Shown: positions 24,001 through 31,993 of the stretch, one piece after another
Position numbering within the stretch: the first letter of the stretch is position 1
How the letters are laid out: each line of letters opens with the position of its first letter
Origin: Candidatus Cloacimonadales bacterium
GTDB taxonomy: Bacteria > Cloacimonadota > Cloacimonadia > Cloacimonadales > JAFGVF01
Reading direction: 5' to 3'
Length of the DNA stretch: 64,000 bases
NCBI GenBank assembly: GCA_963677495.2
Contig: CAXXOU010000004.1
Location: 768,001-832,000 of the forward strand
Position numbers: made by a program

Positions 24001-27000
24001 CATCTAAACCTATATTCTGTTTTCCGAAGACTCGAACATTATCTTTATGATATGAATCCTGATGATTGGTAATCAAGATCTCCATATTGTCATATATTGG
24101 TTGCATCCATGGGTTAAACTTTTCAGACTTAGAACCCGGTAAGTAACCAAGGTCTTTGCCAAGGGGTGAGATAGGTCGTGATATAACTAATCTCTTGTAA
24201 AAGTCATCCTCTACAACTTTTTGAAGCCCTGCAGCCATCGCTAACAACGTTTTACCTGTTCCTGCTATTCCTGATAGAGAAACCATTTTGACATCGTCAT
24301 CGAGTAATAGATCAAGAGCCATTACTTGTTCCATGTTCCTGGATGTAATACCGAACACCTCCTGCTCCATGGAGTAGTTCTTTAGCATATTGATAGAATG
24401 TTCTCTAGTATTGTATCTTCCAAGAACATAACTATCTTCAGTTGAAGGTTCATTAGTACAGGTAAGCTTCACGAACTGGTTTGGATAGAACTCACCGAAC
24501 TCCTCCTCAACAAAGATAAAACCATTAGTAAGATATAATCCAAGTTGACTTTGGCTAATCTCAAGCTCTCTAAACCCGGTATACATCTCATCAAAGTTAA
24601 CCAGGTCATCTTGATAGTTGCTGGCTTTTAAACCGATTGTATCAGCTTTAATCCTTACATTTGTATCTTTAGACAAGAGTACTACTTCAGAATCAGGATA
24701 TTTCTCTTTGAAATGAAGAGCTGTCGCAATAATGAGATTATCATTTTTATCAAGAAAGAACATGTTCTCAGGTTTAGCCATTGAATCATTCATTACGGTA
24801 ACTTGGATGATACCACCTTGCTCATTCTCAACGCCATCTTTTAGTGATCCCTTTTCTCTTAAAGAATCTAGGTATCTACCTAATTGTCTAGCATTTCTGC
24901 CCTTTTCATCAAGGCTCTTTTTGAACTGATCTATCTCCTCAATCACAACCATTGGGATGACTACTCTATCATTACCGAAACTAAAGATTGCGTTAGGATT
25001 ATGAATCAGTACATTTGTATCTAAAATGTTTATTGTACTCACAAACTATTCCTCTTTGTTTCGTCCTACCGCTCCTGCATAAACTAGGAATTCATCGTTA
25101 CCATCAATGTTGAGATAAGGGATTGCAAGTTCATCAAAGAATGCTCCGATTGTGCATACACCAAGATTCAGTGCTTCTCCCGCAAGATAGAGGTTTTGCC
25201 CAACGTGCCCGGCATCAAGATAGATGTATCTATGCCCACGTTGACAATATCTCCAGGTTGTTCTATAAGAAATGGCTGTCCACATGAATACTACAGCTGC
25301 TGTTTTTGCTATTGATTGCCCGGCACATAGATCAGTACATTTTTGACCATTATCGTCTGAATCACTTAAAAGAACTAAAGCATGTTTATCAGCTCTATAG
25401 AAATATAATCCAGGCTTTAAACCATTGCACCTGTTAATCTGTAGATATGTTTCAAATGGATGTCTACAACCGGCTGAAGCGACATATCTGAAACCAACAT
25501 GAATCCTTTCATTCTTAAGTTCTTTACGGATACCTTGAGTATGAAGGAGAAGATAAGAAAGCTCAGTTAAGCTTAAAGCATCATCAGAGTAATCTCTCCG
25601 ACTAACTCTTTCAAGATTGACTTTCGTAAAGCTATCATTTACAGGAGTATAATCTTTTATGTCTGGAAGCTCAATGAGCTCACCCTCAATAATTTTATAA
25701 GGTGATAAAGCTGGCTTCCCCTTCTGTTGATCAGAAACAGATTTAAACTGATAACTAGTTAACTGTCTGAACTTATCTCCGATTTGTACAGATTCTTCCT
25801 CATTCTCTTTGAGGTAGTTAAGTTGATTAGCAAAACGTTCTTCGTACTCGTTGTATTGATCCTCTGAAATTTCTAACTCTTTGATTACTGTCTCTTTATT
25901 GTACCCACTGGCACTCATATACACGTATAAAAATTCTGATTTTGATTTAAACATAAATCCTCCACTAACACTTTTCTAGTTCGCATAAACTTTAAGTCAA
26001 CAAAAAACAGATGCTTTTAGGTTCATTAACCATTAATTCACAAAACAAAGCACCTATAATACGTTTCATTGCTCTCAGTCTGATTGTATTATGAACGAAT
26101 ATCGAAAAGATAACCAACCCAACCATTAGTTTAAAGTAATATGATGAATTTGAGGACTTTGTTTTGCTAACTTGTTAAGTATACCCTTTTCCACAATGCT
26201 AAACTGAGTATATGCTCTAAATAAAGACAAAGCTATGAATAAAATCTCATAGCTTTGTCAACATTCTGAAGTCTGCAGTAAAGCAGACTATAATTTATAA
26301 TTGCTTCTGAATTAGTCAGCTTTAATAACCATTAAAGCATCACCTTTAGCTACAGAGTCACCAGATGCGAAAGGCATTTCAACAACAGTACCGGATACAG
26401 GGCTTGGGATGTTATTAAACATCTTCATCGCTTCAAGTACAAGCACAGTTTCACCTGCTTCAACATGGTCCCCTACGTTCTTTTCATAGCTTACAAGCAT
26501 ACCCGGCATTGGTGCTTCTACAGCACTGCCACCTTCGGTAGCAACTGGTTTTGCTGCAGGTTTAGGAGCAGGAGCTGCTGCAGGAGCTGGTTGTGGCTTA
26601 GGTGCACTTACTTTAGGTACTGCAGGACGAGGAGCACTTGCTACGATTGCAGGCATCTCTTTGTCATCAACTTCAACTTTGAAGTAGTCACCATCAACAT
26701 AAACATCAAAAGAACGAACGTTCTCTGATTTCTCAGGAACATCTTTAGCAGGTTTAGCAGTTAACTCACCACTAAGTGCCTTCTTGATGAGTTCTTCCTC
26801 TTCTTTTACCTGTTCTAGAGTCTTTGGTTTAACATCAGCAGGAATATCTTTCTTACCATATTTCCACTCAAGGAATCTCTTACCTGTAATAGGATAAAGA
26901 GCAACGATAAGCTCATCATCAATGTCTTTAGCAAGTCCTTTCACGCTTTCTTGAACCGCAGGAAGTTCAGGCTCAATAATGTCACCGGGGCGTACACTGA

Positions 27001-30000: not shown

Positions 30001-31993
30001 TCTGGGCTTCTCCGCCCATCATTTCAATCTTCTTTTCTTTTTCCAATAAGTTATTGATTTTGTCTTTTGTAGTTGACATTTAAACTCCTTTAGTATAGAG
30101 TCAGAATTAGCACATATAATTGTCCTTTTCAGTTATAAGTCAAGCTAAATTATTAAGTAATGAAGTGAGGAAAGCATCTATGCCAACTAAAGATAATGAT
30201 AGAAAAAGTGTTGCGGTTGTGTTAGGAGGGGGTGCAGCGTTAGGTCTGGCACATATTGGAGTATTGAGTGTCATTCAAAAATATTTTAAGATTGAAGGCA
30301 TTATTGGTACAAGTATGGGTTCAATAATCGGGGGATTATATGCTTATGGGAAGACCCCTGAATGGATGTTGGAGACAATCAAAGATTATAATTTCCTGCG
30401 AGTATTCAATCCCATACATTTCGATTTCACAATGAAAGGTATATTCAATGGGAAGACAATGTTGGAAGAACTCGACAAGTTTGCTGATGGTGGTATGATT
30501 GAGAACTGTGACATACCATTCTATGCAGTGGCATATGATATTCATACTAAAAGATCAGTTATCATTCATAAAGGTCCTTTAGCGAAAGCAATGCGTGCAT
30601 CTTCAAGTTTACCGTATGTGCTGTCTCCATATAAATATGAACAATATCTTTTCTTAGATGGGGGAGTGGAGTATCCTGTACCGGTAAACTTTGCCAAACA
30701 ACTGTTCTCCAATCTACCAATTATTGCTGTAAATGTACAAGAACCATTACCTAAAACTGCAACATTCTTTAAACCTGAGAACATTAAAAGAAAGAGGAAG
30801 CTTGATATTGGTTTTGTAGAAGCACTTCTCGAAAGTGTATATGGAAATCAAGCATATCTCAGTATCAATGAGATTATCAATGAGAAACCGGATATAGTAA
30901 TAAATCCATTCAATCCTGAATATACTTTTAAAGATTTTCAAAAGGCACAGGAGTTCTATGACTTAGGAGTGAAAACTGCAGAAAATGAGATTAAAAGCTA
31001 TCTAAATAAGCCTGAAAAACTTGATAATTTAGCTATCTACAAAGATAGACTTGAACAAATACGTAAAGATATAGCAGATAAACTCCCGCTTTTTAAGGAA
31101 TTAGCTAATACTTTCAAGAAGAGCTAGCAGTTGCTGAGATTTTAAAAGGGAAGCGAAATGCTTCCCTTTTACTATTTATCAGATATAATCCTATTAAATA
31201 TGTGAGTTAATCTCTTTACGCAACTTATCAGCTTCCTGACCGGCTACTTCTGCAAATTTCTCTGATTTATCTTTAAAGATAATGCCACGAGACGAGTTTA
31301 TTAAGATGCGTAAATCGTCAGGGTTTGCACCTGCATGTTTCACAACAGCTTCAACGCTTCCACCCTGAGCTCCGATTCCGGGAACCAAGAAGAGTGTGTT
31401 AGGCATAATTGCTCTAAGATCAGAAAGTTCTTCTGTATTAGTTCCACCCACAACTGCACCGGCTTGCTCCATTGGGAGTTCAGCAAGTTTCTCAGAAATC
31501 CTTTTATAAAGATTCTCAGGTTTAAGGTAATCTACTGAAGTAGGATTAGAAGTTAAAGCTAAAGAGAAGAAGAACTTATCTTCAAAAGCTAAAAGCGGTT
31601 TATATACATCATGTCCCATAAGGGGATTACATGTGATAGCATCAACTTTCCAAGTTTCAAAGAAAGCTTTCGCATATTGAGTCATTGTGTTACCAATATC
31701 ACCTGTTTTCACATCTAAGATTACCGGAATCTTCTCAGGGATATAGTCTAAAGTCTTCTCTAAAGCTTCAAGTCCCATTTTTCCTGCGGAAAGATAGAAA
31801 GCAAAGTTAGGTTTGTAAGCAGCAGCATAACCCTTGGTTGCATCAATAATAGCTTTATTGAATGTGAAGATAGGATTTTCAGTTTCCATTACACAGTCAG
31901 GTAACTTAGTGATGTCACTATCAAGTCCTACGCATACGTATGAGTTGTTCTCTTTAATTATGTTCTTATATTTTGTCCAAAAACTCATTCTTA

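What a model noticed while it worked through the whole genome (the two positions that open the first line are those of the whole stretch)
26312..30079. Fatty-acid synthesis without any biotin carboxylase: a 12S-5S/1.3S transcarboxylase as the likely malonyl-CoA source
The genome has a full FASII operon including malonyl-CoA:ACP transacylase but no biotin carboxylase, so no ATP-dependent acetyl-CoA carboxylase; the same holds across the order. A conserved operon of an acyl-CoA carboxyltransferase, a 62-aa linker and a pyruvate carboxyltransferase-biotin fusion is the likely ATP-independent source of malonyl-CoA (the Na+-decarboxylase at C4:224907-229016 is the alternative).
Evidence so far: Biotin_carb_C 1 of 31 genomes (a 6%-contaminated bin), ringing in 13 of 14 controls. 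plsX-fabH-fabD-fabG-acp-fabF at C4:246185-251454; g02038 63% MmdA, g02036 PycB-like with biotin domain; the pair is adjacent in at least 135 of 202 order genomes.
(Added by a program. Inside this text positions count along the whole contig: contig position 768,001 is position 1 of the stretch shown here. "Call 12" and the like, gene names such as g00115 and contig names such as C1 are that model's own, and its searches are not shown. The text may have been shortened before it was handed on; [...] marks where a part breaks off. The agent that wrote the report below was given it as the finding of a first reader that could run no searches.)

Follow-up and report, generated by a model that had tools for sequence, protein, structure and literature searches.

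The report
Transcarboxylase replaces acetyl-CoA carboxylase
This anaerobic bacterium, like most of its phylum, has fatty-acid synthesis genes but no ATP-driven acetyl-CoA carboxylase, and most likely makes the building block malonyl-CoA by passing CO2 from oxaloacetate to acetyl-CoA with a three-gene biotin enzyme; close relatives have cleanly lost either this enzyme or the usual carboxylase, as expected if the two do the same job.

Summary
Operon confirmed: 12S-type carboxyltransferase (CT), 62-aa small subunit, 5S–biotin fusion. The genome (Cloacimonadota, 99.5% complete) has FAS II and no biotin carboxylase. 'Whole order' is overstated: 19 of 179 order genomes carry one.

New evidence favours malonyl-CoA supply:
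(1) Among 158 genomes ≥90% complete, all 9 with a canonical accD::A gene lack the 5S gene; 145 of the other 149 have one.
(2) In one genus, five genomes have the transcarboxylase and an empty acc site; a sixth has acc and an empty transcarboxylase site, both on continuous sequence.
(3) Nine genomes keep it without mutase or epimerase; in two near-closed genomes it holds the only CT and only biotin carrier.
(4) The specificity site (PccB 422) is Ile in 48/48 transcarboxylase CTs, Cys in 27/27 MmdA.

Against: no assay; six genomes keep it beside a possible atypical ACC; two fragmented genomes have fabD and neither enzyme; this genome also has the methylmalonyl-CoA pathway, so dual use is likely.

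The chemistry is known (Propionibacterium side reaction; Entamoeba), and this scan proposed the role before on other DNA. A new variant of a known kind, with unusually strong comparative support.

The parts
28526..30079 (-). Acyl-CoA carboxyltransferase (12S/PccB-type beta subunit, 517 aa); Ile410 at the PccB D422-equivalent specificity site
   Evidence: PF01039 660 bits; under the mmdA cut-off, 890 < 998.8; top PDB matches 1VRG T. maritima E 1e-218 and 1ON3 12S E 4e-191; residues 385-444 align without gaps to PccB 397-456, so 410 = 422; Ile in 48/48 orthologues
28328..28516 (-). 62-aa small subunit (N-terminal KKxxAAIxAV helix; C-terminal WxxxGRQxxMxNRxxxQRR); probable epsilon/PccX-like assembly subunit, function inferred
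   Evidence: Found in 109 of 122 loci examined; invariant A10, A11, M49, Q56 in 40 aligned; ACC_epsilon only under cut-off (E 0.024; 6 of 40 members); atlas lead PccX (34% of a cluster, score 0.86)
26312..28297 (-). Pyruvate/oxaloacetate carboxyltransferase (5S-like) fused through a Pro/Ala linker to a biotin domain (1.3S-like), 661 aa
   Evidence: PRK09282 over cut-off; oadA and 5S equivalogs under cut-off; RDGHQS, IKDMAG, HLHTH and EAMKM present and aligned with 5KS8, 2NX9 and 1RQB
26226..26259 (-). Terminator-like hairpin (14 pairs, T tail) closing the operon
   Evidence: pattern match only; 5 found in the region versus 3.4 +/- 1.8 in shuffles

Best explanation
The operon encodes a soluble biotin transcarboxylase that is the cell's route to malonyl-CoA in place of acetyl-CoA carboxylase (ACC). 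The 5S domain takes CO2 from oxaloacetate, releasing pyruvate, and loads it onto the fused biotin arm. The arm swings to the 12S-type CT, which carboxylates acetyl-CoA to malonyl-CoA for FabD. The 62-aa protein probably helps the parts assemble. No ATP is used in this step. Oxaloacetate must come from elsewhere: a divergent PEPCK-like protein with PPDK, or aspartate transamination, are candidates; MDH is absent. SHOWN: gene content, motifs, absence of biotin carboxylase, reciprocal distribution with ACC. INFERRED: complex formation, acetyl-CoA use in vivo, reaction direction, oxaloacetate source. In this genome the enzyme probably also accepts propionyl-CoA, so it may double as the methylmalonyl-CoA-pathway transcarboxylase.
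For: (a) fabD in 156 of 158 phylum genomes >=90% complete, while Biotin_carb_C is in only 28 of 202 genomes >=80% complete. (b) A canonical accD::A gene is in 9 genomes; accB-accC-accD::A with accC over the TIGR00514 cut-off was verified in 7 of the 9. All 9 lack PYC_OADA; 144 of the other 149 have it, 145 counting G061, cut by a contig end. (c) Genus g55: in G192 the 3818-bp acc block lies between alaS and a lipid-kinase gene. In G187, G189, G190, G193 and G194 these genes abut (gaps 52, 72, -8, 49, 56 bp; no N in the gaps), and these five carry the 5S gene. In G192 the two flanks of the transcarboxylase site are about 145 bp apart with no N; about 5.3 kb is missing against G193, leaving a 3' stub of the flanking gene. 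(d) 13 genomes keep the operon-type 5S without methylmalonyl-CoA mutase, and 9 of these also lack an epimerase over cut-off. The 9 ACC genomes keep the mutase (9/9) and epimerase (8/9) without the transcarboxylase. (e) G090 (one contig) and G084 (two contigs) have fabD, fabF and no biotin carboxylase. Their single CT is this one, and their single biotin-type domain is on the 5S fusion (G090's other full hit is in a 464-aa ORF I take for a lipoyl E2, not checked). (f) Site 410 is Ile in 48/48 operon CTs and Cys in 27/27 MmdA. D-to-I at this site widens PccB to acetyl-CoA (PMC7835884, passages). Six closed f14 genomes lacking the operon, biotin carboxylase and mutase have one CT, nested in the MmdA clade (SH-aLRT 99), that carries Ile (6/6). 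(g) The reaction is known for the Propionibacterium enzyme (PMC8085960, passage citing Swick & Wood 1960) and is the reported malonyl-CoA source in Entamoeba (PMC8136499, passage). (h) No malonate decarboxylase MdcA in 0 of 30 genomes tested.
Against: No biochemical or genetic test exists for any member. Site 422 is 'important but not sole'; Ile gives promiscuity, not acetyl-CoA specificity, and the propionate-pathway 12S has the similar Leu. Exclusivity is not absolute. Six f12 genomes (G128, 129, 130, 132, 137, 140) keep the operon and also carry an accA::accD fusion (under cut-offs in the one copy scanned) plus a ~500-aa biotin carboxylase (over the accC cut-off in the one copy scanned). 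G114 (100%, 150 contigs) and G018 (99%, 170 contigs) have fabD but neither ACC nor the operon; assembly gaps are likely but not shown. Kin are not independent: the exclusivity rests on perhaps three or four events, and G192's place in g55 differs between trees. G000 and most relatives keep mutase (138/158), epimerase and Mmd. Close homologues in Desulfobacterota bins coexist with a biotin carboxylase in 2 of 4 tested. Malonyl-CoA synthetase and malonate CoA-transferase routes were not excluded; G000 has a 3-oxoacid CoA-transferase.
Confidence: 0.82

Rival explanations
1. The operon serves only propionyl-/methylmalonyl-CoA turnover: step 2 of the methylmalonyl-CoA pathway, or a cycle with the Mmd pump that acts as a net Na+-exporting oxaloacetate decarboxylase. 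Malonyl-CoA comes from somewhere else.
For: G000 has mutase, epimerase and mmdADCB. Cloacimonetes are proposed propionate oxidisers by this pathway, and Pelotomaculum's mmc cluster has the like set alpha/epsilon/gamma/5S (PMC8892533, passages and section 18). Nearest outside homologues are Syntrophobacteraceae/Desulfobacteraceae bins. A transcarboxylase-plus-Mmd cycle would need no mutase or epimerase (inference).
Against: It does not explain why all 9 ACC genomes lack the operon while keeping mutase, or the reciprocal empty sites in g55. G142 and G187 keep the operon as their only CT with no mutase and no epimerase over cut-off (MAGs, 93% and 91%). In 8 of the 27 sampled Mmd loci the epimerase homologue lies directly beside mmdA, never beside the transcarboxylase in the 40 loci sampled. 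It leaves G090 and G084 with no known malonyl-CoA source.
Confidence: 0.08
2. Malonyl-CoA is made by sodium-driven carboxylation. Either the Mmd complex runs backwards on acetyl-CoA, or the lone OadB-type beta subunit loads CO2 onto the operon's biotin arm, so the 12S-type CT is used but the carboxyl comes from CO2 rather than oxaloacetate.
For: OAD_beta is in 108 of 114 genomes >=95% complete. G000 has a second, lone oadB at C4:210741. In G090 the lone oadB has no biotin partner other than the 5S fusion. In f14 the only biotin domain (checked in G179, G181) is on OadA of an oadGAB operon.
Against: MmdA/MmdC are absent from G090 and G084, so the Mmd version cannot be general. G194 has the operon, fabD/fabF, no ACC and no OadB match (96% complete MAG). 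ACC genomes keep Mmd and OadB but lose the 5S gene, so the ACC-equivalent unit includes 5S. No gamma-type anchor was seen next to the lone oadB in G000 or G090.
Confidence: 0.07
3. A non-biotin route (malonate uptake plus malonyl-CoA synthetase or CoA-transferase) supplies malonyl-CoA, and the match with ACC loss is coincidental.
For: G114 and G018 have fabD and neither enzyme. G000 encodes CoA-transferases. MatB-type synthetases were not searched.
Against: MdcA in 0 of 30. Two misses among 149 match the dropout seen for fabD itself (2 of 158). It does not predict the reciprocal deletions or the Cys-to-Ile change in f14.
Confidence: 0.03

Closest known systems
Methylmalonyl-CoA:pyruvate transcarboxylase of Propionibacterium freudenreichii (EC 2.1.3.1; 12S PDB 1ON3, 5S PDB 1RQB)
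   Same: Same two carboxyltransferase types and a biotin carrier, no biotin carboxylase; GGSY-[IL]-AM at the specificity site; reported to carboxylate acetyl-CoA from oxaloacetate (PMC8085960 passage).
   Different: Biotin domain fused to 5S rather than a free 1.3S; an extra conserved 62-aa subunit; the 5S scores 477 against the 827 cut-off of the 5S equivalog and is closer to PycB/OadA; the inferred main role is anabolic malonyl-CoA supply.
Entamoeba/Mastigamoeba malonyl-CoA-forming transcarboxylase
   Same: Same inferred reaction and role: malonyl-CoA from acetyl-CoA + oxaloacetate where ACC is missing (PMC8136499 passage citing Barbosa-Cabrera 2012; the primary paper was not read).
   Different: Eukaryotic, supplies elongation only; single-chain build according to earlier scan notes (not checked here); here a three-gene bacterial operon feeding de novo FAS II.
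Pelotomaculum mmc-cluster transcarboxylase (mmcH alpha, mmcI epsilon, mmcJ gamma, mmcL 5S)
   Same: CT + small epsilon + biotin carrier + 5S (PMC8892533 section 18).
   Different: There it lies inside the propionate-oxidation cluster with a separate biotin carrier; here it stands alone, is fused, and is kept without mutase and epimerase in 9 genomes.
Thermotoga maritima PccB-like CT (PDB 1VRG)
   Same: Top structural relative; GGAY-I-AM; T. maritima also has fabD, PYC_OADA and OAD_beta but no Biotin_carb_C or mutase in the controls; Thermotogales lack the ACC biotin carboxylase (PMC3199775 passages).
   Different: Deposited as 'propionyl-CoA carboxylase beta'; gene arrangement not examined here; no malonyl-CoA role found in the papers searched.
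Na+-translocating methylmalonyl-CoA / oxaloacetate decarboxylases (MmdABCD, OadGAB)
   Same: Homologous CT (60% to the genome's own MmdA) and an OadA-like CT-biotin fusion.
   Different: No membrane beta or gamma gene in the operon in 40 of 40 loci; separate clade (SH-aLRT 100) with Ile versus Cys; under the mmdA and oadA cut-offs.

Membership tests
Biotin transcarboxylase (EC 2.1.3.1 type) | Acyl-CoA carboxyltransferase (12S-type) | tested here: met
   PF01039 660 bits; 1ON3 E 4e-191
Biotin transcarboxylase (EC 2.1.3.1 type) | Keto-acid carboxyltransferase (5S-type) with metal/catalytic motifs | tested here: met
   HMGL-like + PYC_OADA; RDGHQS, KDMAG, HLHTH aligned to 1RQB (the roles of these motifs are recalled)
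Biotin transcarboxylase (EC 2.1.3.1 type) | Biotin carrier shared by both sites, and a biotin ligase | tested here: met
   EAMKM domain fused to 5S; BPL at C4:924427; sharing itself is inferred
Biotin transcarboxylase (EC 2.1.3.1 type) | No biotin carboxylase and no membrane beta subunit in the unit | tested here: met
   None in G000 for biotin carboxylase; none in the operon in 40/40 loci; a lone oadB exists elsewhere
Biotin transcarboxylase (EC 2.1.3.1 type) | Subunits form one complex and transfer carboxyl without ATP | not testable with these tools
   Needs an assay
Propionibacterium 12S/5S/1.3S transcarboxylase in the strict sense | Free 1.3S subunit; 5S over the PRK12330 equivalog cut-off | tested here: not met
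   Fused biotin domain; 476.8 < 827 bits
Acetyl-CoA carboxylase (AccABCD) | ATP-dependent biotin carboxylase AccC and AccA/AccD-type CT | tested here: not met
   No Biotin_carb_C; ACCA only weak cross-hits in G000
Two-subunit pyruvate carboxylase (PycA/PycB) | PycB-like CT-biotin subunit plus a biotin carboxylase subunit PycA | tested here: not met
   PRK09282 over cut-off but no biotin carboxylase
Na+-pumping decarboxylase (Mmd/Oad) | Beta and gamma/delta membrane subunits with the CT; equivalog scores | tested here: not met
   Not in the operon; mmdA 890 < 998.8, oadA 660 < 756
ACC epsilon / PccX small subunits (62-aa ORF) | Match to PF13822 or PF26062 over cut-off | tested here: inconclusive
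   PF13822 15.7 < 25 bits, 6 of 40 members at E < 1; atlas PccX lead at 0.86; no PDB match

The most novel reading that the evidence does not exclude
A bacterial phylum has replaced ACC by a dedicated acetyl-CoA:oxaloacetate transcarboxylase and has rebuilt the function a second time in family f14 (MmdA Cys-to-Ile paired with the OadA biotin arm). Through the conserved lone OadB, the same biotin arm can also be charged from CO2 by the sodium gradient, giving an ion-driven, ATP-free acetyl-CoA carboxylase.
Probability: 0.2. Interest if true: 0.85.

Novelty: new variant of a known kind. Interest (0 to 1): 0.66.

Why it matters
ACC is treated as the near-universal entry to bacterial fatty-acid synthesis, and lineages lacking it (Thermotogales, Spirochaetes; PMC3199775) have had no tested substitute that I could find. 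The reciprocal deletions in one genus amount to a natural complementation experiment: they name the substitute and make it testable in E. coli. The result also changes how Cloacimonadota genomes are read. This operon may be housekeeping lipid synthesis rather than a marker of syntrophic propionate oxidation, a role already in doubt because other pathway genes are missing (PMC8892533). A natively acetyl-CoA-tuned, three-gene transcarboxylase would also be a useful ATP-saving malonyl-CoA module; a bypass of this kind has been engineered (Shin & Lee 2017, seen only as a reference title).

Tried and rejected
Complex prediction of CT + 5S residues 495-560 + the 62-aa protein gave no verdict (0.16 against the 0.32 mark); it is no evidence either way. 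Promoter scan: no excess over shuffles (12 versus 12.2). No PDB relative for the 62-aa family or for the PEPCK-like protein. No fab gene lay beside the operon in any of the 40 loci examined, so gene neighbourhood gives no support. Species placement of G192: nested among transcarboxylase genomes in the dagK (weak), AmmeMemo (99) and MmdA (90) trees, sister to them in the alaS tree (56); the number of ACC losses is unresolved, though junction sequences differ between G189 and the others. The CT tree is the quick tree, since the careful search did not finish; test_one_clade was not run, so transfer of the g55 operon from f12 is a suggestion only. A Fisher test gave 5e-12 but is rejected as overstated by kinship. 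Rows dropped before the Ile/Cys count: CTs under 450 aa or under 55% identity (cut copies in G119, G177, G018; the MCC-type CT of G197; accD::A fusions). Rejected readings: 'PycB of pyruvate carboxylase' (no PycA) and 'OadA of a pump operon' (no beta/gamma in the operon). Ten literature searches found no paper assigning malonyl-CoA supply to a native bacterial transcarboxylase or to Cloacimonadota. The library lacks most subscription papers; Dyksma & Gallert 2019, Pelletier 2008, Swick & Wood 1960, Barbosa-Cabrera 2012 and Diacovich 2004 were seen only as citations, and no supplements were read.
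Full report
WHAT IS THERE. The minus strand carries a 517-aa acyl-CoA carboxyltransferase (28526-30079), a 62-aa ORF (28328-28516) and a 661-aa protein (26312-28297) made of a pyruvate/oxaloacetate carboxyltransferase, a Pro/Ala linker and a biotin domain. Each has a ribosome-binding site, and a terminator-like hairpin follows. Nearest solved structures are T. maritima 1VRG, PCC beta chains and transcarboxylase 12S for the first, and PycB, OadA and 5S for the third. Record titles of the nearest relatives place the organism in Cloacimonadota; outside the phylum they are mostly Desulfobacterota bins.

THE GENOME. G000 is 99.46% complete in 4 contigs. It has no Biotin_carb_C match over cut-off, while 13 of 14 controls ring, and only weak ATP-grasp hits. 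It has two CTs, this one and MmdA in mmdA-D-C-B, and EAMKM biotin motifs only in MmdC (two) and the 5S fusion. It has the fab cluster, fabD and fabZ over cut-off, two FabK-like genes under cut-off and a biotin ligase. It also has methylmalonyl-CoA mutase and epimerase, a lone second oadB, PPDK, fumarase, malic enzyme and a divergent PEPCK-like gene, but no MDH/LDH, GTP-PEPCK or MdcA.

CORRECTION. Biotin carboxylase is not absent order-wide. It is in 28 of 202 phylum genomes at least 80% complete, 19 of 179 within the order. The three f12 copies read lie in catabolic-looking clusters.

TEST 1, DISTRIBUTION AGAINST ACC. Among 158 genomes at least 90% complete, fabD is in 156. Nine (G186, G192, G195-G201) have a canonical accD::A gene. 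In 7 of them I saw accB-accC-accD::A with accC over cut-off; G196 and G197 showed or were reported with accD::A only. All 9 lack PYC_OADA. Of the other 149, 144 have it and G061 has it cut by a contig end. Eight of these have only a divergent OadA-like form (G177, G178, G179-184). The four without are G176 (keeps the operon CT, small subunit and a free biotin carrier), G157 (also lacks fabD) and G114 and G018 (unexplained; fragmented MAGs). Six f12 genomes keep the operon beside an atypical accA::accD fusion and a ~500-aa biotin carboxylase, so exclusivity holds for the canonical ACC only.

TEST 2, EMPTY SITES. In genus g55, G192 has alaS-[accB accC accD::A]-lipid kinase, with 3818 bp between the flanks. 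In G187, G189, G190, G193 and G194 the flanks abut (52, 72, -8, 49, 56 bp); all five have the 5S gene, and the operon was read in four of them. Conversely, the operon's flanks in G192 lie about 145 bp apart on N-free sequence, with about 5.3 kb missing relative to G193 and only the 3' stub of the upstream gene left, which points to deletion. G192 keeps mutase, epimerase, Mmd and OadB. The g55 CTs nest inside f12 in the quick tree. The simplest history is that the operon arrived in an ACC-bearing lineage and each descendant lost one of two redundant enzymes. That history is inference; the trees disagree on G192's place.

TEST 3, INDEPENDENCE FROM THE PROPIONATE PATHWAY AND THE PUMP. Mutase is in 138 of 158. 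Thirteen genomes have the operon-type 5S without it, and 9 of the 13 also lack an epimerase over cut-off; all are MAGs of 91-98%. G090 (one contig) and G084 (two contigs) have fabD and fabF, no biotin carboxylase, one CT (this one) and one biotin-type domain (on the fusion), so no Mmd. G194 has no OadB match. The epimerase lies beside mmdA in 8 of 27 sampled Mmd loci and beside the operon in none of 40.

TEST 4, SPECIFICITY SITE. Residue 410 aligns to PccB 422, where Asp restricts to propionyl-CoA and Ile admits acetyl-CoA, though it is not the sole determinant (PMC7835884, passages). It is Ile in 48 of 48 operon CTs and Cys in 27 of 27 MmdA (82 full-length CTs, cut or distant ones dropped). 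Six closed f14 genomes have fabD, no biotin carboxylase, no mutase and no operon. Their only CT branches within the MmdA clade yet has Ile (6/6), and also the operon-type state at columns 147 and 195. Their only biotin domain, checked in two, is on OadA. This looks like a second recruitment to the same job.

THE SMALL ORF is real by conservation (109 of 122 loci). It resembles ACC epsilon/PccX only below cut-off. 'Linker' is a reasonable guess, not shown.

MECHANISM. Oxaloacetate + biotin gives pyruvate + carboxybiotin at 5S; carboxybiotin + acetyl-CoA gives malonyl-CoA at the CT. The homologous reaction is near equilibrium, and the Propionibacterium enzyme performs it on acetyl-CoA (PMC8085960, passage); FabD drains the product (inference). 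The step is ATP-free, but the net cost depends on how oxaloacetate is made. A PEPCK_ATP match is in 30 of 30 genomes tested, 21 of them only as a weak, divergent form. Dual use on propionyl-CoA in G000 is likely.

PRIOR KNOWLEDGE. The enzyme class and side reaction are old; the physiological role is reported for Entamoeba (PMC8136499, passage). Thermotogales and Spirochaetes are known to lack the ACC biotin carboxylase (PMC3199775, passages). Cloacimonetes are discussed under propionate oxidation (PMC8892533, passages and section 18). Ten searches found no paper giving this role to a native bacterial enzyme, but the library is partial. Earlier notes of this scan proposed the same role in a spirochaete, Clostridia, Bacteroidales and PVC genomes; these are unchecked AI notes, not support. 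I formed my reading, including the ACC exclusivity, before seeing them.

VERDICT. Observation partly confirmed, interpretation supported (0.82). New variant of a known kind; interest 0.66. What is new here is the reciprocal loss and the convergent Ile, which turn an argument from absence into a directly testable claim.

Noticed in passing
G000:C4:210741-211850 (-); L170 (G090): A lone oadB-type beta subunit with no adjacent gamma, alpha or biotin gene. Most f1 and f3 genomes have two OadB. In G090 the lone copy is the only one and its only possible biotin partner is the 5S fusion. Unexplained.
   Followed up: partly
G000:C4:613343-615112 (L259): 589-aa protein with only a weak PEPCK_ATP match and no NCBIfam (E <= 1e-40) or PDB match, directly upstream of an H+-pyrophosphatase. 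21 of 30 genomes have this form and 9 have canonical PEPCK, one match each: a candidate divergent PEPCK family.
   Followed up: partly
L083, L085, L086, L160-L162 (family f14, G179-G184): The only acyl-CoA CT of these closed 1.5-1.6 Mb genomes sits beside molybdenum-hydroxylase-like genes (label from my reading), about 100 kb from oadGAB, and has switched Cys to Ile at the specificity site.
   Followed up: partly
L087:9417-11219, L088:8443-10086 (f12): Stand-alone accA::accD fusion in the reverse domain order to the f16/f17 accD::A, under cut-offs, in six genomes; four of them tested lack OadB.
   Followed up: partly
L139, L143, L150 (G176, G178, G177): Operon variant CT - small subunit - free biotin carrier (139-149 aa) without 5S; a divergent OadA-like gene lies elsewhere in G177 and G178.
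   Followed up: partly
G000:C4:227149-227886: MmdC carries two tandem biotin domains (two EAMKM); about 240-aa forms occur in several families and about 145-aa forms in others.
   Followed up: no
L092, L093 (family f1, genera g2 and g3): 5S-biotin fusions of about 760 aa, 100 aa longer than here; a possible second biotin domain was not checked.
   Followed up: no
L249:182-4696 (G041): 1504-aa ORF with CT and biotin carboxylase domains in one chain on a 6.9-kb contig, the only Biotin_carb_C hit in family f3 (1 of 87); transfer or bin contamination.
   Followed up: no
L079-L082 (genus g55): A ~115-aa ORF (four-helix-bundle / intervening-sequence type, label recalled), or its remnant, is inserted between the small subunit and 5S.
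   Followed up: no
window 21780-23678 (-): Alanine-racemase-like protein (label recalled) of 632 aa, with a C-terminal extension of about 260 aa.
   Followed up: no
window 31194-32530 (-): pyrR-pyrF-like pair (labels recalled) near the operon; their homologues lie directly downstream of the operon in several f3 genomes.
   Followed up: no
G000:C3:519563-539677 (-): A 6704-aa ORF with a signal-peptide-like start.
   Followed up: no
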